Assembly: GCA_038279365.1 (NCBI GenBank)
Contig: JAYODI010000072.1
Location: 14,952-29,721 of the forward strand
Source of the DNA: Candidatus Latescibacterota bacterium
Lineage (GTDB): Bacteria > Latescibacterota > UBA2968
DNA length: 14,770 nucleotides
Direction of reading: 5' to 3'
Under the pieces are notes generated by a model, which was not told the DNA's origin, ran no database searches, and was given only the letters and a program-made list of their open reading frames with translations. This document shows, in pieces, positions 1 through 14,770 of this stretch. Positions within the stretch are counted from its first letter, which is position 1, and each line of letters opens with the position of its first letter. Made by a program: the position numbers and the translations under genes.

Positions 1-57
1 AAAAATCAAGGGCGCGGGGATCGTTAAAAATCGAGGGCGCGGGGACCGCGCCCCTAC
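1..57 (-). repeat. GTAG-type REP-like palindrome (35-57) with a partial tandem duplicate (1-22); may also act as terminator of the upstream gene
   Basis: Minus strand reads GTAG-GGGCGCGG-TCC-CCGCGCCC-TCGATTTTT: GTAG tag, perfect 8-bp stem, then a T-run. It lies 32 nt after the stop at 90. Bases 1-22 nearly repeat 26-47 (AAAAATCRAGGGCGCGGGGAYC). Confidence 0.7.
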
Positions 58-2794: not shown

Positions 2795-3823
2795 TTAAGG
2801 TGATGCAATAAATCCAGCATTTTTATAAGCGTTTTCTAATTGGCGACCTACGTTATCCCATAAGAAGGTGTTACGGGCATATTCAATGGTGCCTTCTGGC
2901 AGGTCATTTTGATAGGTTTTTTGGATGGTGTTGCGCATGTCAGATTCAGAATGGGGATCGAAGTAATTGGCGTAGTGTTTGAAGGTTTCTTGTGTGGTGC
3001 CGCCGTTTGTGATGGCGACTTTGGTGCCTGCCAAGAGGGCTTCCATGGCGACCATGCAGGGGTATTCGTAGAAGCTGGGCACCACAAGGGTGTTGGCGGC
3101 GGCAAATGCAGAGGCCAAGAGGTTGTCTTTGGGGTTGAGATAGTCGATGAAGAGGGTGTTGGGCGAAGCTTCTTTTTTGCATTGTTCGAGGTAGTCTTCG
3201 GCACCTGTGATGGGGCGACCGACAAAAACGAGGGGCAGGTCGGTGGTTTTGTTGGCGCGAATGAGGCCGAGTTGGTTTTTTTGGCGGGGGTCAAATCGGC
3301 CAATGCAAAAGAGAAAGTTGTCGATGCCGTAGTGTTTTTTGAAGGGTTCGGGGTCTGCGCCGACAAAGCGATCTGCCACGCCACACGGGACGATGGTCAT
3401 TTTTTCTTTGGGGATGTCGTAGAGGTCGGCAAGCAGGTCTTGTTCGCCTTGGGCATTGGGCAAGATGAGGTCGGCTTCGTTGAGCATGAGGCGTACAAGG
3501 GCAGGTGGGGGTTTGAGGCGTGTGAGGCGGCTGAGGTATTTGCGCGAGAGGCGTTGTGATTTGGGGTGGTCGGGCAGCCAATACATGGTGGTGACGGCGA
3601 GTTTTTTACCTGCGGCTTTGACGGTGAGAAACCAGTCGTAGTTGCCGTAGCCCAAACCAAAGTGGTGGATGAGGTCAAAGTCTTCGAGTTTGTGTGTCCA
3701 GGGGTCGAAGCGGTGAACGTCATAGCCGTTTTGTTGGAGGTATTCGAAGGTTTGGTTGAGGGTGAACATGCCACCACCTGGGTCGAGGCGCATGGTGGGG
3801 TAGGCGAAGACGCCGATTTTCAT
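2795..3823 (-). CDS. GT4 family glycosyltransferase, 342 aa
   Basis: MKIGVFAY start with AAAGGAAG Shine-Dalgarno; IGRFDPRQKNQ and PSFYEYPCMVAMEALLAG (intact EX7E). The ORF-track extension to 3970 runs into the repeat element. Confidence 0.88.
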   Translation of the reverse strand: MKIGVFAYPTMRLDPGGGMFTLNQTFEYLQQNGYDVHRFDPWTHKLEDFDLIHHFGLGYGNYDWFLTVKAAGKKLAVTTMYWLPDHPKSQRLSRKYLSRLTRLKPPPALVRLMLNEADLILPNAQGEQDLLADLYDIPKEKMTIVPCGVADRFVGADPEPFKKHYGIDNFLFCIGRFDPRQKNQLGLIRANKTTDLPLVFVGRPITGAEDYLEQCKKEASPNTLFIDYLNPKDNLLASAFAAANTLVVPSFYEYPCMVAMEALLAGTKVAITNGGTTQETFKHYANYFDPHSESDMRNTIQKTYQNDLPEGTIEYARNTFLWDNVGRQLENAYKNAGFIASP

Positions 3824-3891
3824 GTTTTGACTTCCTTTGTCAATTGCAGGTGTTGCTGTTTTAGGATTTGCATTCACGTTGGTTGCTTGTA

Positions 3892-4114
3892 TTGCCTTCG
3901 GCGACCTACTTCTTTGAGAGACCAAAGAAGTAGGCAAGAAAGTCTCTCGCTGGCCGCGAGGGGCTTTCAATAGTGATCAGAGTTTTTACGGGCGGAGGCC
4001 ACCCTCACCTGCCCGTGCCGTTCCCACCCTTCCGCATATTCCATATGCCCCTTCCACGCCCACCCCAAAGGCCACCACACCAACTGCACAACGGCCCACA
4101 CCACCTGTGGGTGG
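3892..4114 (-). repeat. Copy 1 of a ~220-nt structured dispersed element (candidate ncRNA, leader or non-autonomous mobile element)
   Basis: Shares identical 13-, 23- and 31-nt blocks and hairpin order with 13300-13514; stems show compensatory changes. Begins 3 nt after the flippase stop. Strand assignment is tentative. Confidence 0.85.
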
Positions 4115-4117
4115 TAT

Positions 4118-5668
4118 TCAGGTTTTTTGCTCTTCTCCCTTTGTTGAGGAAGAATTTGGCTTGATGGCGTGAACAATATTTTGAATTTCTTGCATGATGG
4201 TTTTGCGTTCGATTAAGAATAAACCAAAGATGTAGCCTGTGGAAAAGAGGAAACTGCCGATGATGAAATGGGCAAGGGGTGAGACGGTGATAAGTGATGG
4301 GGCGATGGCTTGGTGGCAGGCTACTCCGATGAGGCCTGCGATGAGTGGGGGACCGAAGGTTTTGGTGATGGGGATGTCTACAAATTTTCGTGCATAGATG
4401 AGGGCTAAGATGAGGCCGATGAAGGCCATAATGTTCATGCTGAGTGCAATGCCGTAGATGCCCATTTCGCGTGCGAGTAGGGGGGCGAGGATGAGGAGGA
4501 TGAGGCCTTGTATGGCGGCAAAACGGGCGATGCTTAAGGGCGATCCAACGCTGTAGAAGAGGGCGTGGAGGTCGTCGAGGATGGGGCGGCAGAGGGAGTA
4601 GATGATGAGGGATTGGAGCAGGGGGGCGGCAGAGATCCATTCGTCGCGAAAGATGAGGATCCAGCGGTCGGCTTCGAGGGCAAGTAAAATGGATAAGGGA
4701 ACGGTGGCTCGCAGGATGAGGCGCAGGGCACGGCGATAGGCAGCAGAGAGTTGTTCGCGGTCATTTTGATAGCGGGCATAGACGGCACCAGTGATGCGCA
4801 CGATGGCCAAGGTGATGGCACCCGTGGGAATTTGAGCAAAGTCTTGTGCGGTGTCGTAGAGGCCGCGCCAGTGGAGGCCCAAGTAGAAGCTGATGATGAG
4901 TTTGTCGTAGTGTTGTACAAAGATTTTGGGTACGCCACCGAGCCAAAATTGGAATCCGTATCGAATCATTTGACGGGCGGCTTGGGCATCAAATTGTTTG
5001 AGGCGATGGAGTGGGGGTGGGTGTTTGGACCAGACGACTGCGCAAAAGACCACGACGTAAGCAACGCTGTAGGGATAGAAGCCAAGAATGAGGGCCCATT
5101 TGCCAAAGCCGAAATAGGCGAGGGTGATGCCCACAAGTGCGGCCAAGATGGTGCCACCGGCATGGGCAATTGCCAGGCGACCAAATGCAAGGTCGCGTTG
5201 GAGTTGTACTTCGGCGGTGAGGGCGGCGGTGCGGAAGAAGTCGAAAATGCCAAAGACGGCCAAGGCGAGGGCCACTTTGGGGTAGGCTTCGGTGGCGGTT
5301 GCGCCGCCGAGGTAGGCTTCGAGGGTTTGGGCCACAGCAATGGCTTGGTCGTAATAGACGGCCATGAGCAGTGCCAAGGCGGTGCTGATGCTGCCCAGGC
5401 CAATGCTTAAGACAAAATGTGTGGGCGCAAGGGTGTGGACGCGGTCGTGTTGGTGAAGAAGGGCGTAGTGCAGGCCAAAGTCACGAACGGCAACAGCCAT
5501 GGCAAGAAGTGAAAACGCCGTGCCAACCGCGCCGAAGTCTTCGGGTACGAGAATTTGTAAGAGCAAGAGCCGAACGGCAAGTGTGAGCAACCGTGCGGCA
5601 TAGGCACTGCCAAATGTTTGGATGGCTCCACGTGCAATGCGTTGGATGGCGGATTGTTCATCCGACAT
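4118..5668 (-). CDS. Wzx/MOP-family oligosaccharide flippase, 516 aa
   Basis: Polytopic membrane protein with LLQILVPEDFGAVG, QLQRDLAFGRLA, YDKLIISFYLG...GLYDTA segments. Start MSDEQ at 5668 has GAGGA upstream and overlaps the previous gene by 11 nt. Confidence 0.88.
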   Translation of the reverse strand: MSDEQSAIQRIARGAIQTFGSAYAARLLTLAVRLLLLQILVPEDFGAVGTAFSLLAMAVAVRDFGLHYALLHQHDRVHTLAPTHFVLSIGLGSISTALALLMAVYYDQAIAVAQTLEAYLGGATATEAYPKVALALAVFGIFDFFRTAALTAEVQLQRDLAFGRLAIAHAGGTILAALVGITLAYFGFGKWALILGFYPYSVAYVVVFCAVVWSKHPPPLHRLKQFDAQAARQMIRYGFQFWLGGVPKIFVQHYDKLIISFYLGLHWRGLYDTAQDFAQIPTGAITLAIVRITGAVYARYQNDREQLSAAYRRALRLILRATVPLSILLALEADRWILIFRDEWISAAPLLQSLIIYSLCRPILDDLHALFYSVGSPLSIARFAAIQGLILLILAPLLAREMGIYGIALSMNIMAFIGLILALIYARKFVDIPITKTFGPPLIAGLIGVACHQAIAPSLITVSPLAHFIIGSFLFSTGYIFGLFLIERKTIMQEIQNIVHAIKPNSSSTKGEEQKT

Positions 5669-8069
5669 CTTCGGTGTCCTCGGTGGGTTTTCGGGCAAAC
5701 ACGATGAGACCCATGATGAGTATGGCAACGCCCCCAAAGGTGATCCAACGGGTTGTGGCCACAATGGGGTCGTGGTAGCGCAATTCTACGGTGTGTTCAC
5801 CGGGTGAAAGGGCCACGGCTGTCCAGAGGTAGTTGGCGCGAATGAGAGGTTTTTGCTCACCATCAACAAAGGCTTGCCAGTGTGGGTGGTGGTTTTGTGA
5901 GATGACCAGTATGCGTGGCCCCGATGCGTTGGTGTGGAGTTTGACATGGCCTTGTCGGGCATCGTATTCGAGTTTTTCAACGGTGCCTGGTTCTTGGGCG
6001 TTGGTGTCTTGTGCGATACCTGGGTCTTCTTCTAAGAGGGCCGTTTCTTGTGGGCGGGTATTTGGATCACGTAGGCGCTCGAGAATTTGATCTTCATCAT
6101 TAATGATTTCGTATTGCGGTGCGAGGTAAAACCACGGTAGAGCAAGTGGGTTTTGGTAGATGTGTAGATTATCAGCTTCACCTGCCTTTTGCATCCAAGG
6201 TATATCGAGTGGATTGGTTGAGACAAGGTATTTGGTGTTGAGCAAGTTGAGAATGGTGGGGCGATTGAGGTCGCCAGATTTGAGAATGTGGTCGTAGCGG
6301 CCAATGGCGAAGTCGTTAAAACCTGTAACAAGGTCAATGCCATGAAGAGGAACGTCTTTTGCACTTGGATACGCGAAGACACGAAAAAGATCGGTGTCTT
6401 TTTTGAGGTAGTTGACCACATTGGGGTTGATCTGTTCTTGTGCTTGTACGACGTTGGGATTGACGTAAGAGAGAAACAATTTGTCGATGCGCCATGTGTC
6501 AACGATGATGAGTGGGATAAGAATGAGGGCAAAGACATGAGGTTGTAATTTGTTTTGAAGCCGTAGGTGTGTGAGCAGGGTCATGATGCCCACAAAAAGT
6601 GCGGCCAAAAGTGCGCCTTGTCCGAGATAGCCTAAACTGGCTTGTGCCACTTGCATTTTGGGGGCTGGCATGTCTGTCCATAAAATGCTGCGCCAAATAG
6701 AAAGTAGGGTTGCGGGTGAAAAGGAAAAGATGAGCAGAACAATTGCGGATGCACTGCCTGCAATGAGAAACTTGCGCGCAGTTTCGGGGGCAAGGTCTGC
6801 GTTGAGAATGCGGTGAAGACCATAGGCTGATAAGAGGCACAATGCAAAGGCATATAAGAAGGCGATCATGCCAGGGGCACGCAACACATTAACACCGGGT
6901 ATGAGATAATAAAAGATTTTGTGCAAAGGTGTGTGTGGGCCTAATGCAAAGGCAATGGCAAGAATGAAAAGTGCAAACAGAAAGGCGATATGTGACTTTT
7001 TGCGCATGAATGTGAGCGCAAAGAGACCAAAGAACAACGGAATGATGCCAACATATTCAGAGTTGCCTTTGAACAGGTTTCGCCCCCAATAATGGTAACC
7101 GTCTTCGTTTTGATCTACGCCCGGAAATTTTGAATCAAACCCACCAAATTCGGGAATGACAAGGGCGAAAATTTCTTCGGGGTGGAGCGACCAGGACGAC
7201 GCGTATTCGTAGCCTGCACCAGCTTGTTCTTTGCCAGCCCGTTTGGTTACGGTTTTTGTGTTCCAATATTGTGGAAACACACCTTCGGCTCCAATGGCCA
7301 AACCCAAACAGATGGCACCTGCAGAAAGGAGTGAGCGATAGAGTGCGCTGTTGATGTTTTTGTCTTGGAGATAGTGCTGCACCACTTTGTAAAGATAGAG
7401 CAGGCCCAATGCCCAAAGTGCGAAGTAAACCATTTGCAAGTGAGGGGTATAAATGCTGATGCCTACGGTACCACCAAGTATGAGAAAGTAGATGATTTTT
7501 TTGGTGTCCATGCCTTGGTAGAGAGCCCAATACATGAGTGGTAAAAATGAGATCACAGACATTTTGGCAAAATGTCCGGCATGGGTGAATGTAAGCAATG
7601 TGGGGGTTGATGCATAAGCCACACCGGCAACAAGTGCTGCGAGAGGATGAAGCCCCAAGGCGCGGGCACAGAGAAAGGTGAAGTATCCGGCACAGAACAT
7701 GGCAAAGACATAACGCCAACCAAAGTAACGGTGTTCACTGGTAAAAAGTGCGATAATTTGAAGTGGGAAATATTGTGCACGCAGGCCACTGGATTCAGGT
7801 GTGCCGCCCATATAGCGGCTCCAGTTGGCAGGTGGGATTTGCGCCAATTTTTCAACGAAGGAACCTTGGCCTTTTTGAAGTTCAAAACCCGTGTCGGAAC
7901 CCAGTATGACATCACCTGTAAAGATAAAACGATAAAAATAGATGATGGTGAGGAGAGCAAAGAATGCAACGGGTACCCACGGCTTGGACAATTTTTCTGT
8001 GAGCGATGTTGATTCTGTGGTGTCGGTTGTTTGTGAGGTGGGTCGCGTTTGGCGTGCGCGTTTGCTCAT
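5658..8069 (-). CDS. YfhO-family large membrane protein (GT-C-like), 803 aa
   Basis: SWSLHPEEIFALVIP, YVGIIPL, LNLLNTKYLV, NPLALPWFY and C-terminal HPHWQAFVDGEQKPLIRANYLWTAVALSPGEHTVELRY. ATG at 8069 overlaps the upstream stop (ATGA) and has an AAAGGA Shine-Dalgarno. Confidence 0.85.
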   Translation of the reverse strand: MSKRARQTRPTSQTTDTTESTSLTEKLSKPWVPVAFFALLTIIYFYRFIFTGDVILGSDTGFELQKGQGSFVEKLAQIPPANWSRYMGGTPESSGLRAQYFPLQIIALFTSEHRYFGWRYVFAMFCAGYFTFLCARALGLHPLAALVAGVAYASTPTLLTFTHAGHFAKMSVISFLPLMYWALYQGMDTKKIIYFLILGGTVGISIYTPHLQMVYFALWALGLLYLYKVVQHYLQDKNINSALYRSLLSAGAICLGLAIGAEGVFPQYWNTKTVTKRAGKEQAGAGYEYASSWSLHPEEIFALVIPEFGGFDSKFPGVDQNEDGYHYWGRNLFKGNSEYVGIIPLFFGLFALTFMRKKSHIAFLFALFILAIAFALGPHTPLHKIFYYLIPGVNVLRAPGMIAFLYAFALCLLSAYGLHRILNADLAPETARKFLIAGSASAIVLLIFSFSPATLLSIWRSILWTDMPAPKMQVAQASLGYLGQGALLAALFVGIMTLLTHLRLQNKLQPHVFALILIPLIIVDTWRIDKLFLSYVNPNVVQAQEQINPNVVNYLKKDTDLFRVFAYPSAKDVPLHGIDLVTGFNDFAIGRYDHILKSGDLNRPTILNLLNTKYLVSTNPLDIPWMQKAGEADNLHIYQNPLALPWFYLAPQYEIINDEDQILERLRDPNTRPQETALLEEDPGIAQDTNAQEPGTVEKLEYDARQGHVKLHTNASGPRILVISQNHHPHWQAFVDGEQKPLIRANYLWTAVALSPGEHTVELRYHDPIVATTRWITFGGVAILIMGLIVFARKPTEDTEDVG

Positions 8070-10824: not shown

Positions 10825-11826
10825 TTATGCTTGGGTGGCAACAAGATGAGCTTCTATAATTTCTTCTATTGAAACGGTATCAACACCGACTTTGCCGACC
10901 ACAATGCCACCGGCTAAGTTGCCAATATAAGCGGCTTCGGCGGGTGATGCACCTGAGAGCTGTGCAAGCGTGTAAACGGCGGCGGTGGAATCGCCTGCGC
11001 CAGAGACATCGAAGACGTCGCGTGCGGTGGCGGGGATGTGTGTAACTTGTCCGTTGGCTTCAAAGAGGGCCACGCCTTTTTCACTGCGGGTCATGTAGAC
11101 TTGCTCAATTTCAAATTGTTTGACGAGGCGGTGTCCGATTTCGATGACTGTTTTTTCGTCTGCCTCATCAAGATTAAATACACCGATGGCCTCCGATTGG
11201 TTCGGAGAAATTGCAGTGAGGCCAAAATATTTGTCAAAGTTACGACCTTTGGGGTCTGCCATGACGGGGTAGTTGTGTTGTTTTTTGACTTGGCGCATGG
11301 CGTCCATAAATGGGGCGGTGACCACACCTTTGGCATAGTCAGATACAAAAATGGCATTGAGTGATTGGGCTTGGGTGATGGCATTGATCAATTGTTCCAA
11401 TAATGTATCGTCAATGGGGGTGCTGATTTCTCGATCAACACGTAGCATTTGTTGTTGCTGGCGATATTGGGTGTGTCCCATCACGCGGGTTTTGGTGGTG
11501 GTGGGGCGATTGGCGTCTGTGATGAGAGCCGATGTGTTGATGCCTGATTTTTCGAGTGTATTGGTCAGATGTTTGGCATTGTCGTCATTTCCAACAAGGC
11601 CAGCAATGGTGACGGTGGCACCGAGGAGGCGCAAGTTATAGGCCACATTGGCGGCACCACCTGGGCGGTAGGTTTCTTGTTCGACACTGACCACAGGTAC
11701 GGGGGCTTCGGGTGAGATGCGTTTGGTTGCGCCCCACAGATAGTGGTCGAGCATGACGTCGCCAACGACGAGTACGTGTTGGTTGGGAAATCCGTTGAGG
11801 ATGTCACGGAGACGTTCGGAGGTCAT
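10825..11826 (-). CDS. rfaE1: D-glycero-beta-D-manno-heptose-7-phosphate kinase (HldA / RfaE domain I, PfkB family), 333 aa
   Basis: [62 protein letters not shown] overlap with the upstream gene. Confidence 0.93.
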
Positions 11827-13250
11827 TTGCTTCCTTTGATTTTTTCAACAATGTTGGTGGTGGAGCGGCCTTCGACCAAGGGAATGGTGGTGACCATGCC
11901 CCCTGCGTTTTCGACTTCTTCGCGCCCAACAATGTCTTGCACGTTGTAGTCGCCCCCTTTGATGAGCACGTCGGGTAACAGTGCGGCAATGAGTTCGCGT
12001 GGGGTGTCTTCGTCAAAGGGGATGATGTGGTCGATGCATTCGAGTGCGGCGAGCACACCTGCGCGATCTTCGAGGGGCAAGATGGGGCGGCTGGGGCCTT
12101 TGAGGCGTTGTACGGAGGCATCGGTGTTGAGGCCGAGAAAGAGGACATCGCCTTGTTCGCGTGCTTTTTGAAGGTAGGTGACATGGCCACGGTGGAGGAG
12201 GTCGAAACAGCCGTTGGTGAAGACGGTTTTGATGCCGAGTTCTTTTAAGCGATTGCGTACCGATATGGCTTGTGCGCGAGTTAGGATTTTGTTTTCAGAT
12301 GCAGTTACGCGGTCGTCGAGTGATTCGGCAAGTGCATGGGCAAGGAGAGGGATCATGATTTCGTGGTGGCCGGTGAAGCTGTAGCCTGTGCCGCCTTGCA
12401 TGGTGGGGCGTTGGACGACGTTGACGCGGGGGCGATAGTGTTGGATCATGTCGAAGTTGGCGGTGACAAAGTGATCCACGGTGTGGCCTAAGTTGCGGGC
12501 GACTGTGAGGGCTTTGAGAAATACTTCGGGTAAGAGGACGGCGGAACCGATGTTGAGGTAGGCGCCACCTTCGAGGGAGGCGACAACCGAGCAGAAGGTT
12601 TCGAAGTCTTTGTATGAGGCCCGACCGATGGCTTCACCGTTTGCGGTGGGTTGTTGTTGAACAATGTCGGTGCCAATGGCTACGTGTACGGTGACGGGAA
12701 TGTCTAATTCATAGGCGGTGGCCAAGATGCTGGTGTGGCAATAGGGTTGGCTGGTTTCGACGAGTTTTTGGCCGAGTGTTTTGCCGTATCCGAGGGAGGT
12801 GTTTTCTATGGCGTGGTTGATGAATGTGCCGGTGTCTTGGGCCATACCAAAGGAGCCGTCTTTGAGGCCTTCGGCAACGTCTTCGGAGGTTTGGCCTTGC
12901 ATGGCAATTTCAACATCGTGAATGGATGTGGAGCCGTTCATGGCAATGGCGGAGATCCAACCGCGTTTCATGAGGTCGATGAGGATGGGCGCGAGGCCAC
13001 ATTTGATGACATGGCCGCCGATGCCGATGGCAATGGTTTTGTTATTGCGGATGGCTTGTGAGAGGGTGCGGATGAGGTTTCGAAAGTCGGCACCGATGAG
13101 GATGTCGGGGAGGCTGGTGAGGAAGTGGCCGAAGGAGGCCCCACCATGAGCGGAGGTGGCAAAGGTGGCGAGGGAGACTTTGTTGGGGCGATTGGATAGG
13201 GGATAGGTTTGGACTTTGGAGAGGTCTATTTTGGGGAAGTTTTTGGGCAC
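11823..13250 (-). CDS. rfaE2: Fusion: N-terminal deoxyhypusine-synthase-like domain plus C-terminal heptose-1-phosphate nucleotidyltransferase (HldC / RfaE domain II), ~475 aa
   Basis: C-terminal ~155 aa: [57 protein letters not shown]-terminal: [50 protein letters not shown] start at 13250 chosen for AAGGA 7 nt upstream. The symbol refers to the C-terminal domain only. Confidence 0.82.
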
Positions 13251-13299
13251 TTTTGAGTCCTTGGTAACAATCGGTATTTTTGTATGATTTGTCGTTTTG

Positions 13300-13514
13300 T
13301 TGCCTTCGGCGAGATACATTTTTTTACGGCAAAAAAAGTATCCCAAAAAGCCGCCACTGCGTGGAGCTTTCATTTTGTTCAGTGTTTTTATGGGCGTAGG
13401 CCACCCTCACCTGCCCGTGCAGTTCCCACCCTGCCACGTGTTCCACACGTCCCTTCCACACCCACCCATCACATCCACACCAACTGCACAACGGCCCACA
13501 CCACCCGTGGGTGG
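13300..13514 (-). repeat. Copy 2 of the ~220-nt structured dispersed element
   Basis: Colinear with 3892-4114; identical blocks at 13300-13312, 13398-13420 and 13475-13505. Confidence 0.85.
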
Positions 13515-13530
13515 AATTGAAGTTTTAGAT

Positions 13531-13779
13531 ATGATTCGATTGGCTTTTAATCTTGAGTCCGTAGGATTTTTCCCTAAAATAGCACCGGAATTTATTCCGG
13601 TGCGGTTGATTCGATGATTTTCGAAAGGGTTTTAGGTGTTTTATCCTGTTGGCCATGATTCGATTGTCTTTTGATCTCGAGTCCGTAGGACTTTTCTCTA
13701 AAATAGCACCGGAATTTATTCCGGTGCGGTTGATCGGGCGATGACCGAATTAATATTTCAATCTCCATTATTCCGGTGC
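13531..13779. repeat. Two 80-bp direct repeats (13531-13610, 13655-13734), each with a 22-bp palindrome, plus a half-palindrome remnant (13768-13779)
   Basis: 75/80 identical, period 124 nt. GCACCGGAAT-TT-ATTCCGGTGC at 13582-13603 and 13706-13727; small AGTCC-GTA-GGAYT hairpin in each unit. Confidence 0.9.
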
Positions 13780-13784
13780 AGAGG

Positions 13785-14351
13785 TTATGGGTGTGTATCT
13801 ATAATCCAATTGGCAACATCTAAGAGATCGTTGCCTATGTAGCTGATTTGTTTGCGCGTTTGAGCGTTGGCTTGATTGAGCACGTCTTCACCATAGCCTG
13901 TGCGAACGAGGGCCGATTGGCATCCGGCGTTCCAGCCGGCTTGGAGGTCGCTGAGGCTGTCGCCGATCATGTATGAACGCGAGAGGTCGAGGTTGTGTTC
14001 TTTGGCGGCGCGTTGGAGCATGTGGGGTTTGGGTTTGCGACAGTTGCAGATCACCTTTTCGCCATATTCGGGGTGATGGGGGCAATGGTAGATGGCGTTG
14101 AGGGTTGCGTTTTGGTTTGCCAGTTGACGTTTGAGTTCGGTGTGTATTTCTGTGAGGCCTGCTTCGGTGAGGAGGCCTCTGGCAATGGCCGATTGATTTG
14201 TGATGACAATGATTGCATAACCAGCGGCATTGAGTTTGGCAATGGCTTTGTCTGCGTTGGGGATGAGTTGGAGGTCTTCAACGCGGTGTAGGTGGCGCAC
14301 ATTGACGTTGATGGTGCCATCGCGGTCAATGAATACGGCTGGGTGACTCAT
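13785..14351 (-). CDS. gmhB: GmhB-type HAD phosphatase (heptose-1,7-bisphosphate phosphatase; histidinol-phosphatase activity not excluded), 188 aa
   Basis: PAVFIDRDGTIN, VITNQSAIARG, Zn-site CPHHP...CNCRKPKP, MIGDSLSDLQAG, VRTGYG. ATG at 14351 overlaps the hisB stop (ATGA). Confidence 0.85.
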   Translation of the reverse strand: MSHPAVFIDRDGTINVNVRHLHRVEDLQLIPNADKAIAKLNAAGYAIIVITNQSAIARGLLTEAGLTEIHTELKRQLANQNATLNAIYHCPHHPEYGEKVICNCRKPKPHMLQRAAKEHNLDLSRSYMIGDSLSDLQAGWNAGCQSALVRTGYGEDVLNQANAQTRKQISYIGNDLLDVANWIIDTHP

Positions 14352-14770
14352 AGGCTGCCTTTGGTTGAGGGCACGCCTGTAACCCGTGGGTCTTGTGAAA
14401 CGGCTTGGCGCAAGGCTCGGGCAACGGCTTTGAAGATGGCTTCCATGCCGTGGTGGGCGTTGCTGGCGCGAATGAGGTCGATGTGTAGGTTGAAGCGTCC
14501 GTTTTGTGAGAGTGCGGTGAAAAATTCCATACCGAGTGATGTGGGAAAGGTGCCAATCATTTCTTCGGTGAATGTGGCTTCGTAAACGAGGTGACCACGG
14601 CCAGAGAGGTCGATGACGGCTCTGGCGAGGGCTTCGTCCATGGGCACATAGGCCGAACCAAATCGGGTGATGCCTTTTTTGTCGCCGAGGGCTTTTTCGA
14701 GGGCTTGGCCGATGCAAATGCCTACGTCTTCTACGGTGTGGTGGGCGTCTACTTCCAGATCGCCTTTGCA
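14348..14770 (-). CDS. hisB: Imidazoleglycerol-phosphate dehydratase, 5'-truncated by the window edge
   Basis: Frame is open to the window end: KGDLEVDAHHTVEDVGI...GITRFG...PMDEAL...DLSGR...NAHHGMEAIFKA...PSTKGSL, containing both HHxxE metal motifs. Confidence 0.97.
   Translation of the reverse strand, partial: CKGDLEVDAHHTVEDVGICIGQALEKALGDKKGITRFGSAYVPMDEALARAVIDLSGRGHLVYEATFTEEMIGTFPTSLGMEFFTALSQNGRFNLHIDLIRASNAHHGMEAIFKAVARALRQAVSQDPRVTGVPSTKGSL

What the first reader, a model, noticed from the sequence alone, without database searches (positions are those of the whole stretch)
3892..4114. Unrecognised ~220-nt structured element, duplicated 9.4 kb away, with compensatory base-pair changes
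Seen (plus strand, copy 1 vs copy 2). Identical blocks: TTGCCTTCGGCGA (3892/13300), 23 nt (3996/13398) and 31 nt (4075/13475). Divergent parts keep pairing. Stem CCTACTTCTTTG/CAAAGAAGTAGG (3905-3934) becomes GATAC-a-TTTTTTT/AAAAAAAGTATC (13313-13342), four swapped pairs. Hairpin GCATAT-TCC-ATATGC (4034-4048) becomes ACGTGT-TCC-ACACGT (13436-13450), three swapped pairs. A third hairpin keeps AAAG..CTTT ends with a different top. Inference: selection acts on a single-stranded fold, so this is a functional structured RNA or ssDNA element. I cannot match it to a named family. No terminal inverted repeats or shared target duplication are visible.
Basis: partly seen in the sequence, partly recalled or inferred. 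Interest (0 to 1): 0.9.

Follow-up and report, generated by a model that had tools for sequence, protein, structure and literature searches.

The report
Multi-copy folded RNA element between genes
The two look-alike stretches belong to an undescribed family of about 230-base folded elements, 20 or more per genome, that lie between genes in the direction of transcription; they most likely act as RNA modules that shape the fate of the messenger RNA.

Summary
Both copies exist as described, and their differences keep the base pairing. They are two of 20 full copies in this genome. More copies lie in two sister genomes and in metagenome contigs, giving 157 distinct copies. No Rfam family matches.

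The folding strand is the window's minus strand, the sense strand of the genes (G-U 177 cells, A-C 10). On 50 copies, 97% of cells pair and 21 of 35 pairs change on both sides (0 of 500 shuffles reach this).

New here:
- The element has two parts. A G-rich 5' domain is found only in this genus. An 80-nt 3' module is shared with a second repeat family across several genera.
- The 3' module holds a covarying pseudoknot.
- It also holds a single Watson-Crick pair, kept in 143 of 146 copies.
- A U/C linker mirrors the purine strand of the hairpin, which is the signature of a triple helix.

Copies face the same way as flanking genes (42 sense, 3 antisense). No near-identical copies within one genome were noticed. 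Copies at the same locus in different species show 50 compensatory changes.

Best reading (0.5): a cis-acting RNA module transcribed with the neighbouring genes. The function is inferred, not shown.

The parts
3892..4126 (-). Copy 1 of the element (family A). It lies between the stop codon of the flippase-like gene (4118-5764, minus) and the start of a GT4 glycosyltransferase gene (2795-3823, minus).
   Evidence: D2, D4. Pfam of the neighbouring genes. The upstream gene's stop codon lies inside the conserved 5' leader. The next ATG is 68 nt after the element's end.
13300..13526 (-). Copy 2 of the element. It lies between a HAD-phosphatase-like gene (13785-14768, minus) and a cytidylyltransferase-like gene.
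   Evidence: Pfam. A copy sits at the same locus in a sister genome (L112).
3965..4114 (-). G-rich 5' domain of copy 1, found only in this genus. It has near-invariant unpaired blocks and three covarying helices: a long-range helix 4085-4089 with 4015-4019, a hairpin at 4034-4048, and a helix 4011-4014 with 3990-3993.
   Evidence: helices 1-3. for the helix search. for the distribution.
3946..3960 (-). H1, a GC-rich hairpin followed on the RNA by a U/C run, so it resembles an intrinsic terminator.
   Evidence: flags the stem 3960-3946 with its tail. Its pairs were not counted formally, because length variants break the alignment there.
3935..3941 (-). L1, a U/C-rich linker whose C positions mirror the G positions of the purine strand of H2 in parallel register.
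3942..3947 (-). Pseudoknot strand 'a', which overlaps the 3' side of H1. It pairs with the H2 loop at 3917-3922.
   Evidence: helices 4 and 5: 4 of 6 pairs change on both sides.. The same pairing is seen by eye in family B and in other genera.
3905..3934 (-). H2, an A/U-rich hairpin of 11-12 bp with a 6-nt loop at 3917-3922.
   Evidence: I1. helix 6: 9 of 11 pairs change on both sides, and 97.3% of cells pair.
3892..3904 (-). 3' end of the element. It holds the covarying pair X (3904) with N (3898), which crosses the mini-hairpin H3 (3900-3902 with 3894-3896, loop G-N-A).
   Evidence: helices 7 and 8; the pair is Watson-Crick in 143 of 146 copies, with all four pair types.
11823..13250 (-). 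Gene downstream of copy 2. The listed ORF runs to 13373 into the element. The likelier start is the GTG at 13250, preceded by an AAGGA-like ribosome-binding site, 49 nt after the element's end.
   Evidence: The start codon was chosen by reading the sequence and was not tested.

Best explanation
The finding is two members of an undescribed family of structured elements of about 230 nt (family A). The elements are transcribed on the sense strand together with their neighbouring genes. They most likely act in cis at the RNA level, on the stability, processing or read-through of polycistronic mRNA.

Shown:
- A conserved fold on the window's minus strand, built of two modules.
- Module 1 is a G-rich 5' domain of about 150 nt. 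It has near-invariant unpaired blocks held between covarying helices, the pattern of an RNA with a specific tertiary fold or binding partner.
- Module 2 is a 3' module of about 80 nt, made of five pieces in order. First, a GC hairpin (H1). Second, a U/C linker (L1). Third, an A/U hairpin (H2) whose loop pairs back to the 3' side of H1, forming a pseudoknot. Fourth, a lone covarying pair (X:N). Fifth, a mini-hairpin (H3).
- The linker repeats the purine strand of H2 in parallel register (U opposite A, C opposite G).

Inferred:
- The linker can lie in the major groove of H2 as a U.A-U / C+.G-C triple helix, giving a compact knot.
- This knot, or the H1-plus-U-run terminator-like hairpin, sets where transcripts end or how well they resist 3' exonucleases.
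- The 5' domain binds a protein or ligand that modulates this.

How new copies arise is not known.
For: 1. Fold. 97.0% of 1739 cells pair, 21 of 35 pairs change on both sides, and the covariation score is 0.445 against 0.215 in shuffles. No shuffle of 500 reaches these values, and slid partners pair in 34-55% of cells.
2. Strand. G-U makes up 177 cells and A-C 10, so 97.0% of cells are canonical on the minus strand and 87.3% on the plus strand.
3. Orientation. In G000, 18 of 20 copies have both neighbours on the element's strand, 1 has both opposite, and 1 lacks a flank. In two sister genomes, 24 of 38 are same/same, 2 opp/opp, 4 same/opp and 1 opp/same, and 7 lack a flank. Among copies with two co-directional neighbours, that is 42 sense against 3 antisense.
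4. Spacing. The next start codon is mostly 40-90 nt after the element's end.
5. Constraint in place. In 11 pairs of copies at the same locus in different species, 50 pairs changed on both sides and stayed paired, 23 changed on one side and stayed paired, 14 broke and 302 were unchanged. In 8 such pairs the elements are 0.67-0.82 identical, while the 60 nt upstream are 0.38-0.57 identical, at the level of shuffles.
6. No recent burst. Over 12246 pairs of 157 distinct copies, identity is unimodal around 0.77. The 25 closest pairs listed all involve a copy from a public scan, and none pairs two G000 copies. The most alike pair of G000 copies is 0.88 identical.
7. Not coding. Spacers between conserved blocks vary in 1-nt steps, with remainders mod 3 of 59, 58 and 39.
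8. X:N pair. It is Watson-Crick in 143 of 146 copies.
9. Linker. Swapping linkers among 105 sequence types lowers the mean parallel run from 5.85 to 4.78 (0 of 500 swaps reach 5.85). Of the copies whose purine tract is asymmetric, 36 match in parallel, 0 antiparallel and 7 neither.
10. Pyrimidine third strands parallel to the purine strand, inside H-type pseudoknots, are the known architecture of RNA major-groove triple helices (PMC7583470, passages read).
11. RNA. One 151-nt contig from a metatranscriptome library is 100% identical over 3793-3943 and joins the gene start to the 3' module. A second library holds a contig of another family member.
Against: - No RNA end, strand or level was measured. 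The RNA-library evidence is two short contigs that could come from contaminating DNA.
- By folding energy alone the plus strand stands out more than the minus strand: z = -4.74 against -1.79.
- The second family (B), which shares the 3' module, has no orientation preference: 12 same/same, 19 opp/opp, 6 same/opp, 4 opp/same, and 6 lacking a flank, of 47. The module alone therefore does not depend on the direction of transcription.
- With only 0-1 nt between the H2 loop pairing and the H2 stem, the full pseudoknot, the full hairpin and the triple helix can hardly all form at once. I did not model this.
- The triple-helix signal rests on about four independent asymmetric sequence patterns, not on 36 independent events.
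- When the two tracts are aligned from their 5' starts, 105 of 178 copies give a run of 6 or more compatible positions, 28 give 4-5 and 45 give fewer than 4.
- Downstream genes share no function, so no regulon logic supports a specific signal.
- Gene calls come from my own simple ORF script.
Confidence: 0.5

Rival explanations
1. A cis-regulatory leader or attenuator for the downstream gene. The 5' domain senses a ligand or protein and decides whether the H1 hairpin plus U run terminates transcription, as in a riboswitch or a protein-dependent attenuator.
For: - The element ends at a nearly fixed 40-90 nt before the next start codon, and 46 of 55 downstream genes are co-oriented.
- Near-invariant unpaired blocks sit between covarying helices.
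- H1 plus its tail is flagged as terminator-like in copy 1.
- RNAalifold on 56 copies pairs the invariant 5' block with the H1 region. This competes with the covarying long-range helix, as an antiterminator would.
Against: - The downstream genes are unrelated: four sulfatases, a succinyl-CoA ligase subunit, an E1 dehydrogenase, an FMN reductase, a dipeptidase, a sugar epimerase and others.
- About a third of copies start within 20 nt of the upstream stop codon, leaving no room for a promoter.
- 8 of 35 sister-genome copies have the next gene on the other strand.
- The supposed expression platform is shared with family B, which has no orientation preference.
- The antiterminator pairing has no covariation, because one side never varies.
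- The conserved H2, X:N and H3 parts lie after the terminator-like hairpin and have no role in this model.
- No Rfam riboswitch matches.
Confidence: 0.2
2. A mobile or formerly mobile DNA element (MITE-like, REP-like or IS200/IS605-end-like). Its hairpins would be recognised as single-stranded DNA by a transposase, and the covariation would reflect what the enzyme needs, not an RNA function.
For: - The element is present or absent at the same locus in different species. G000 has gaps of only 13-74 nt at four loci where sister genomes carry the element.
- Copies at the same locus carry different 3' module types, for example 5 double changes in H2 in one pair. This suggests module exchange.
- Small palindromic inserts are nested at different places in several copies.
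- Family B has no orientation preference.
- The genome holds a Y1-transposase-like gene.
- From my own knowledge and untested here: G-T pairs are tolerated in DNA hairpins, and G-N-A triloops closed by C-G are very stable DNA mini-hairpins.
Against: - No terminal inverted repeat was found, and no target duplication could be read from filled and empty sites.
- No near-identical paralogs were noticed among 157 copies.
- The Cas12f1/TnpB-type domain PF07282 and reverse transcriptase (PF00078) were not found in G000, which is 98.5% complete.
- The Y1-like gene is flanked by a different repeat family.
- Y1 genes do not track the module. They are found in 7 of 12 family genomes with the module and in 7 of 12 without. 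Two one-contig genomes rated 97-99% complete (G014, G022) have many module copies and no Y1 gene.
- The strand bias relative to genes is 42 to 3.
- There are 0 matches in viral contigs.
Confidence: 0.15
3. Independent small-RNA genes, each with its own promoter and terminator, acting in trans.
For: - Family B occurs in any orientation and ends with the terminator-like H1 plus U run.
- The fold is conserved across genera.
- A metatranscriptome contig holds a family-A copy.
Against: - No promoter-like site lies upstream of either window copy on the sense strand.
- Many family A copies abut or overlap the upstream stop codon.
- The 42 to 3 orientation bias is not expected for free-standing genes.
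- From my own knowledge: 20-47 or more paralogs per genome would be unusual for a trans-acting sRNA.
Confidence: 0.07

Closest known systems
Pneumococcal BOX elements and similar modular intergenic repeats (RUP, ERIC, Correia). Recalled from my own knowledge, not read here. The earlier scan note e1-4511062 also names pneumococcal repeats.
   Same: Tens to hundreds of copies per genome. Strictly intergenic. Built of modules that recombine. Predicted stable folds. Co-transcribed with neighbouring genes.
   Different: This family shows strong covariation with near-invariant unpaired blocks, a pseudoknot, a 42 to 3 sense bias and a fixed distance to the next start codon. No near-identical paralogs were noticed and no inverted ends were found.
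REP/BIME elements with their RAYT (Y1) transposases. Recalled.
   Same: Intergenic hairpin repeats, often in 3' untranslated or intercistronic RNA, where they can stabilise upstream mRNA. A Y1-transposase-like gene is present in the genome.
   Different: REPs are palindromes of about 20-40 nt, whereas this is a multi-helix fold of about 230 nt. The Y1-like gene is flanked by another repeat family. Y1 genes do not co-occur with the module.
H-type pseudoknots with major-groove triple helices: telomerase RNA, SAM-II and preQ1-II riboswitches, and ENE-type RNA stability elements (PMC7583470, passages read).
   Same: The loop of one stem pairs with an upstream strand, and a U/C-rich linker runs parallel to the purine strand of the second stem, with U opposite A and C opposite G.
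   Different: There is no sequence or family relation. The predicted run of 6-9 triples is long. The linkers on the other side are only 0-1 nt, so the classical geometry may not fit. Nothing was probed experimentally.
EAR (eps-associated RNA) and phage put RNAs: processive antitermination elements inside operons. Recalled.
   Same: A structured RNA lying between genes of an operon in the sense direction. Copy 1 lies inside a polysaccharide gene cluster, as EAR does.
   Different: No Rfam match to EAR or any other family. Most copies lie next to unrelated genes. No NusG-type partner was looked for.
Multi-copy candidate structured RNAs from comparative genomics (PMC2864571 and PMC5737381, seen only as search listings).
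   Same: Same kind of evidence: covariation, intergenic position, many copies.
   Different: None of the 4227 Rfam models, which include those motifs as far as I recall, matches this element.

Membership tests
Any Rfam 15 family | Score at or above the family's gathering threshold | tested here: not met
   There are 0 matches in the window at gathering level. In E-value mode the best match is E = 0.046, 26 bits against an 80-bit threshold, to a structureless eukaryotic lncRNA model. Eight loci with family B or the module gave one unrelated sub-threshold match.
REP/RAYT (REPIN) system | The repeats flank the RAYT (Y1 transposase) gene | tested here: not met
   The Y1_Tnp gene at G000:C91:8020-8361 is flanked by a different repeat, the two-hairpin type also seen at window 13531-13749. 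It is not flanked by family A or its 3' module.
REP/RAYT (REPIN) system | Co-occurrence of the repeat and the RAYT gene across genomes | tested here: not met
   Y1_Tnp is found in 7 of 12 family genomes with the module and in 7 of 12 without. G014 and G022 have many module copies and no Y1 gene.
MITE | Terminal inverted repeats | tested here: not met
   The inverted-repeat search on 3860-4150 returns only the internal H2 stem and one 9-nt internal pair, neither at the ends.
MITE | Target-site duplication at filled against empty sites | tested here: inconclusive
   Four filled/empty comparisons were aligned, but the intergenic DNA is too diverged between species to read the junctions.
MITE | Young, near-identical copies within a genome | tested here: not met
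   The most alike pair of G000 copies is 0.88 identical. The 25 closest pairs among 157 copies all involve a copy from a public scan, and none pairs two G000 copies. Within-record pairs of the public scans were not tallied separately.
IS200/IS605 ends or TnpB guide RNA | A TnpB or TnpA gene carrying the element at its end | tested here: not met
   PF07282 has 0 matches in G000, while the control rings in 8 of 14 genomes. Neither Y1_Tnp hit lies next to family A.
Retroelement-derived repeat | Reverse transcriptase in the genome | tested here: not met
   PF00078 has 0 matches in G000, which is 98.5% complete. Mobile genes are often missing from assemblies.
Intrinsic (Rho-independent) terminator | GC-rich hairpin followed by a U run | tested here: inconclusive
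   H1 of copy 1 is flagged (stem 3960-3946, tail AGACTTTCTT). H1 of copy 2 is not flagged. The alignment shows a U/C run of 7-9 nt after H1 in nearly all copies. No 3' ends were measured.
Riboswitch or other cis-regulatory leader | Sits upstream of functionally related genes | tested here: not met
   The 20 neighbouring genes scanned with Pfam are unrelated in function apart from four sulfatases.
H-type pseudoknot with major-groove triple helix | Two crossing helices supported by covariation | tested here: met
   In the loop-to-upstream-strand pairing, 4 of 6 pairs change on both sides. In H2, 9 of 11 do.
H-type pseudoknot with major-groove triple helix | Pyrimidine third strand parallel to the purine strand, U opposite A and C opposite G | tested here: met
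   Among asymmetric tracts, 36 match in parallel, 0 antiparallel and 7 neither. Among symmetric tracts, 33 of 34 have the same pattern. 79 are homopolymers and carry no information; 17 have different run numbers and 5 could not be parsed, of 178. Only about four independent patterns underlie the 36. The swap control gives 0 of 500.
H-type pseudoknot with major-groove triple helix | Loops long enough to allow both stems and the triplex at once | not testable with these tools
   The linkers on either side of the loop pairing are 0-1 nt. By my own reasoning, full coexistence is unlikely. No 3D modelling tool was at hand.
Integron attC site | A single long imperfect hairpin, arranged in arrays after cassettes | tested here: not met
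   The fold has several helices and the copies are dispersed over many contigs. The attC-specific boxes were not searched.
Protein-coding sequence | Length changes in multiples of three | tested here: not met
   Spacer lengths of 60, 61, 62, 63 and 64 nt are all common, with remainders mod 3 of 59, 58 and 39.
tRNA or tmRNA-derived element | Detected by ARAGORN | tested here: not met
   ARAGORN finds 0 genes in the window.

The most novel reading that the evidence does not exclude
The 80-nt 3' module shared by several genera is a bacterial triple-helix pseudoknot with 6-9 consecutive U.A-U / C+.G-C triples. That would be as long as the longest natural RNA triple helices known. It would serve as a portable knot that protects or defines RNA 3' ends. 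In this genus it has been joined to a G-rich sensor domain, making a new class of portable riboregulator inserted between genes of many operons.
Probability: 0.2. Interest if true: 0.85.

Novelty: new variant of a known kind. Interest (0 to 1): 0.65.

Why it matters
Dispersed structured repeats are known in a few well-studied bacteria, but their function is mostly unclear and their folds are simple. This is a larger, two-module fold in an uncultivated lineage. Each copy has been kept in shape by selection in place. The copies are locked to the direction of transcription. The comparative evidence for a pseudoknot, and possibly a long triple helix, is unusually clean. If the 3' module is an RNA-stability or 3'-end-defining knot, it would be a bacterial counterpart of eukaryotic and viral triple-helix stability elements, and a compact part for RNA engineering. 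If the 5' domain binds a ligand or protein, it points to a global regulator acting on 20-47 or more sites per genome. If it is ordinary after all, it remains a well-defined new RNA family for Rfam.

Tried and rejected
- P1 hairpin at the 5' end. Duplex energies of the variable 5' segment with either candidate partner equal those of shuffles: -8.88 against -8.63, and -8.78 against -8.34, on 131 copies. This helix is unresolved and was left out of the counted structure.
- CsrA sponge idea. A CsrA gene exists, but the GGA motifs are not conserved across copies, so I dropped it.
- G-quadruplex idea. The G runs pair with pyrimidine runs through G-C and G-U (helix 3). I did not pursue it further.
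- T-box or cobalamin riboswitch likeness. This rested on short motifs seen by eye. There is no Rfam match even at E = 10.
- Promoter inside the element. The consensus scans found none on the sense strand.
- Folding energy as a guide to the strand. It favours the plus strand. I gave it less weight than the G-U to A-C ratio, because G-rich shuffles fold well anyway.
- RNA evidence. The four RNA libraries hold only 6 short contigs on the 1.4-kb stretch. Parts without cover say nothing.
- Literature. Searches (terms latescibacter, repeat, intergenic; 7 papers listed; terms multicopy, structured RNA, intergenic, pseudoknot, metagenom; 84 papers found, 12 listed) showed no paper whose title pointed to this element. 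I read listings only.
- Earlier-findings look-up by sequence found nothing.
- Hydrogenophaga. The single hit in the genome scan has a shorter spacer and stands alone. I take it as chance.
Full report
**What is there.** Both lie in gaps between genes of a minus-strand polysaccharide-synthesis cluster. By Pfam the cluster holds GT4 glycosyltransferases, a Polysacc_synt_3 flippase-like protein, a PfkB kinase, a cytidylyltransferase-like protein and a HAD hydrolase. Copy 1 (3892-4126) begins at the stop codon of the flippase-like gene and ends 68 nt before the ATG of a glycosyltransferase gene. Copy 2 (13300-13526) ends 49 nt before the likely GTG start of the next gene.

**It is a family, not a duplication.**
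- BLAST of copy 1 against the window's own genome (6.03 Mb, 199 contigs, 46.5% G+C) gives 43 matches.
- Iterated nhmmer gives 71 hits. Twenty are full length, 4 are cut by contig ends or partial, and 47 match only the last 80 nt or so.
- In 40 related genomes, the full element is found only in the two other genomes of the same genus. The 3' 80 nt are found in three more genera of the same family, in 12 of 24 family genomes in all. They are found in 0 of 16 genomes of the sister family.
- A two-block pattern of the 5' domain, scanned over one genome for each of 185,579 species, hits 71 stretches. Seventy lie in two sets of records titled 'MAG: Candidatus Latescibacterota bacterium'. One is a lone hit in a Hydrogenophaga MAG, which I take as chance.
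- The same pattern hits 119 stretches of metagenome contigs, of which 80 loci were returned, and 0 viral contigs.
- After removing identical sequences I had 157 distinct full copies: 20 from G000, 13 from the regions fetched from G001/G002, 69 from the genome scan and 55 from the metagenome scan.
My results agree with it.

**No known family.** Rfam 15 gives nothing at gathering level. Only chance-level matches appear in E-value mode on both copies and on eight loci carrying the related family. ARAGORN finds no tRNA-like gene. Two literature searches returned no paper whose title pointed to this element; I saw listings only.

**The fold.** I first aligned 58 copies from three genomes and used 56 of them; 2 were dropped for more than 40 gaps. 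Mutual information and stacked-pair searches picked out the helices. I then counted pairs on a tool alignment of 50 of the 58 copies. The 8 left out were four G000 copies and four sister-genome copies with large insertions, deletions or truncation.

The counted structure has 35 pairs in these helices:
- a long-range helix in the 5' domain;
- a 5-bp hairpin;
- a GGGC/GYYY helix;
- a 6-bp pairing between the 3' side of hairpin H1 and the loop of hairpin H2, which is a pseudoknot;
- the 11-bp H2;
- one isolated pair, X:N;
- the 3-bp mini-hairpin H3.

The results:
- 97.0% of 1739 cells pair, against 85.0% in shuffles.
- 21 pairs change on both sides, against 14.8.
- 215 cells change on both sides, against 52.6.
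- The covariation score is 0.445, against 0.215.
- No shuffle of 500 reaches any of these four values. One measure, further pair types, is not above the shuffles (315 of 500).
- With partners slid by 1-3 columns, only 34-55% of cells pair.

The X:N pair has the highest mutual information of all column pairs. It is Watson-Crick in 143 of 146 copies that carry the motif: T:A 78, A:T 30, G:C 21 and C:G 14. Eleven of the 157 copies lack the motif. X:N crosses H3, so the two cannot be nested, and I have no structural explanation for it. The hairpin at the very 5' end could not be resolved.

**Which strand.** Among the counted cells, G-U occurs 177 times and A-C 10 times. So 97.0% of cells are canonical on the window's minus strand and 87.3% on the plus strand. 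Folding energy alone points the other way: z = -1.79 for the minus strand and -4.74 for the plus strand. I give the comparative evidence more weight, because shuffles of a G-rich sequence fold well anyway.

**Two modules.** The 47 short hits are not fragments. They are a second family (B) with its own 5' domain of about 150 nt. That domain includes a long-range stem that occurs in two fully swapped versions. Family B carries the same 3' module, and it is conserved in other genera of the family. The pseudoknot pairing covaries there too, as seen by eye. The 5' domain of family A was found only in this one genus.

**The linker.** Between the pseudoknot strand and H2 lies a U/C-rich linker of 7-9 nt.
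- Its pattern of C interruptions follows the G interruptions of the purine (3') strand of H2. Swapping linkers among 105 sequence types lowers the mean compatible run from 5.85 to 4.78, and 0 of 500 swaps reach 5.85.
- Taken over all 178 parsed copies of families A and B, runs in parallel and antiparallel register are about equal (means 6.10 and 6.21), because most tracts are homopolymers or symmetric.
- In the informative cases, where the purine tract is asymmetric, the linker matches in parallel in 36 copies, antiparallel in 0 and neither in 7.
- Among symmetric tracts, 33 of 34 match. A further 79 are homopolymers, 17 have different run numbers and 5 could not be parsed.
- The 36 copies come from about four sequence patterns, so the number of independent events is small.
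- When the two tracts are aligned from their 5' starts, 105 of 178 copies give a run of 6 or more compatible positions, 28 give 4-5 and 45 give fewer than 4.

A pyrimidine strand parallel to the purine strand, inside an H-type pseudoknot, is the known architecture of major-groove RNA triple helices (PMC7583470, passages read). One caveat is that only 0-1 nt separate the loop pairing from the H2 stem. By my reasoning the full pseudoknot, the full hairpin and the triplex cannot all form at once. They may be alternative states. This was not modelled.

**Context.** I called genes with a simple ORF script of my own.
- In G000, 18 of 20 family A copies have both neighbours on the element's strand, 1 has both opposite, and 1 lacks a flank.
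- In the sister genomes, the 38 copies split as same/same 24, same/opp 4, opp/opp 2 and opp/same 1, with 7 lacking a flank.
- Among copies lying between two co-directional genes, that makes 42 sense and 3 antisense.
- The upstream gene is co-oriented in 49 of 53 cases and the downstream gene in 46 of 55.
- The distance to the next start codon is mostly 40-90 nt. The distance from the upstream stop codon ranges from overlap to several hundred nt.
- Pfam of the 20 neighbouring genes shows unrelated functions.
- Family B shows no preference: 12 same/same, 19 opp/opp, 6 same/opp and 4 opp/same, with 6 lacking a flank, of 47.

**Evolution.**
- Mapping the flanks of the 38 sister-genome copies onto G000 shows 10 at loci where G000 also holds a copy (one of them partial).
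- At four G000 loci, matched by six sister-genome copies, G000 has a gap of only 13-74 nt. Several other sister-genome copies map to larger or unclear gaps.
- Alignments of filled and empty sites are too diverged to read the junctions.
- Copies at the same locus are no more alike (0.75-0.88) than copies at different loci (mean 0.75).
- In 11 same-locus pairs, 50 pairs changed on both sides and stayed paired, 23 changed on one side and stayed paired, 14 broke and 302 were unchanged. One pair was left out because its G000 copy was not in that alignment.
- In 8 such pairs the elements are 0.67-0.82 identical. The 60 nt upstream are 0.38-0.57 identical, at shuffle level, and the 45 nt downstream are 0.43-0.77 identical.
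- Pairwise identity over 12246 pairs is unimodal around 0.77. The 25 closest pairs listed all involve a copy from a public scan, and none pairs two G000 copies.
- Spacer lengths vary in single-nucleotide steps, so the element is not coding.

Together this describes old copies. Each has been kept in shape where it sits, with some gain, loss and exchange of modules. It does not look like a recent burst of a selfish element.

**Mobile-DNA partners.** G000 has no match to PF07282 (the Cas12f1/TnpB-type domain) or to reverse transcriptase. It has two Y1-transposase-like matches. The strong one is flanked by a different repeat, the two-hairpin type also present in tandem at window 13531-13749 next to copy 2. 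Across 24 genomes of the family, Y1 genes do not follow the 3' module: 7 of 12 with the module have one, and 7 of 12 without. Two one-contig genomes rated 97-99% complete have many module copies and no Y1 gene.

**RNA evidence.** This is thin. In four metatranscriptome libraries, one 151-nt contig is identical to 3793-3943 and joins the downstream gene's start to the 3' module. Another library holds a contig of a different family member. Contigs show neither strand nor ends, and DNA carry-over cannot be excluded.

**Verdict.** The element is a new, well-supported structured family of two modules. My best reading (0.5) is a cis-acting RNA module transcribed with its neighbours, whose 3' part forms a compact knot that may include a triple helix. 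The rivals are a conditional terminator or leader (0.2), a mobile ssDNA element (0.15) and free-standing sRNA genes (0.07). The fold and its context are shown. The function is inferred.

Noticed in passing
window 13531-13749: Two tandem copies, 124 nt apart and 87% alike, of another repeat with two hairpins. One hairpin is a 9-bp GC-rich stem flagged as terminator-like. The same hairpin types flank the Y1-transposase-like gene at G000:C91:8020-8361, and pieces of this repeat lie just upstream of at least three family A copies. This is a candidate REP/RAYT-type system.
   Followed up: partly
G000, 47 places (for example C114:14503-14585, C73:21817-21895); also L053-L077 in other genera: Family B is a second structured repeat of about 230 nt or more that shares the 3' module. 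Its 5' domain is closed by a 9-10-bp long-range stem that occurs in two completely swapped versions. One relative had 270 first-look candidates. In one genus the repeated unit is 340-400 nt.
   Followed up: partly
G000 C113:8740-8992, C34:30759-30863, C36:15014-15118, C175:577-678, C45:22681-22735, C191:184-242, C111:26823-26925: A small palindromic insert of about 23-25 nt (6-bp arms, 11-nt centre) is nested at different positions and in both orientations inside copies of families A and B. This suggests a still smaller mobile or recombining hairpin unit.
   Followed up: no
window 1-48: Two tandem 25-nt repeats, 91% alike, at the very start of the window (D6).
   Followed up: no
window 11823-13373: The longest ORF of the gene downstream of copy 2 runs 70 nt or more into the element. 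The likelier start is the GTG at 13250, after an AAGGA-like site.
   Followed up: partly
whole window and flanks of other copies: Read by eye and not quantified: the sense strands of genes and their leaders are C/A-rich and G-poor, while the 5' domain of the element is very G-rich on the same strand.
   Followed up: no
G003 (a relative in the same family): One 8.4-Mb one-contig genome of the family gives 75 Y1-transposase matches, many with the same E-value and score. This suggests a multi-copy IS200-like element. That genome had no match to the repeat studied here.
   Followed up: no
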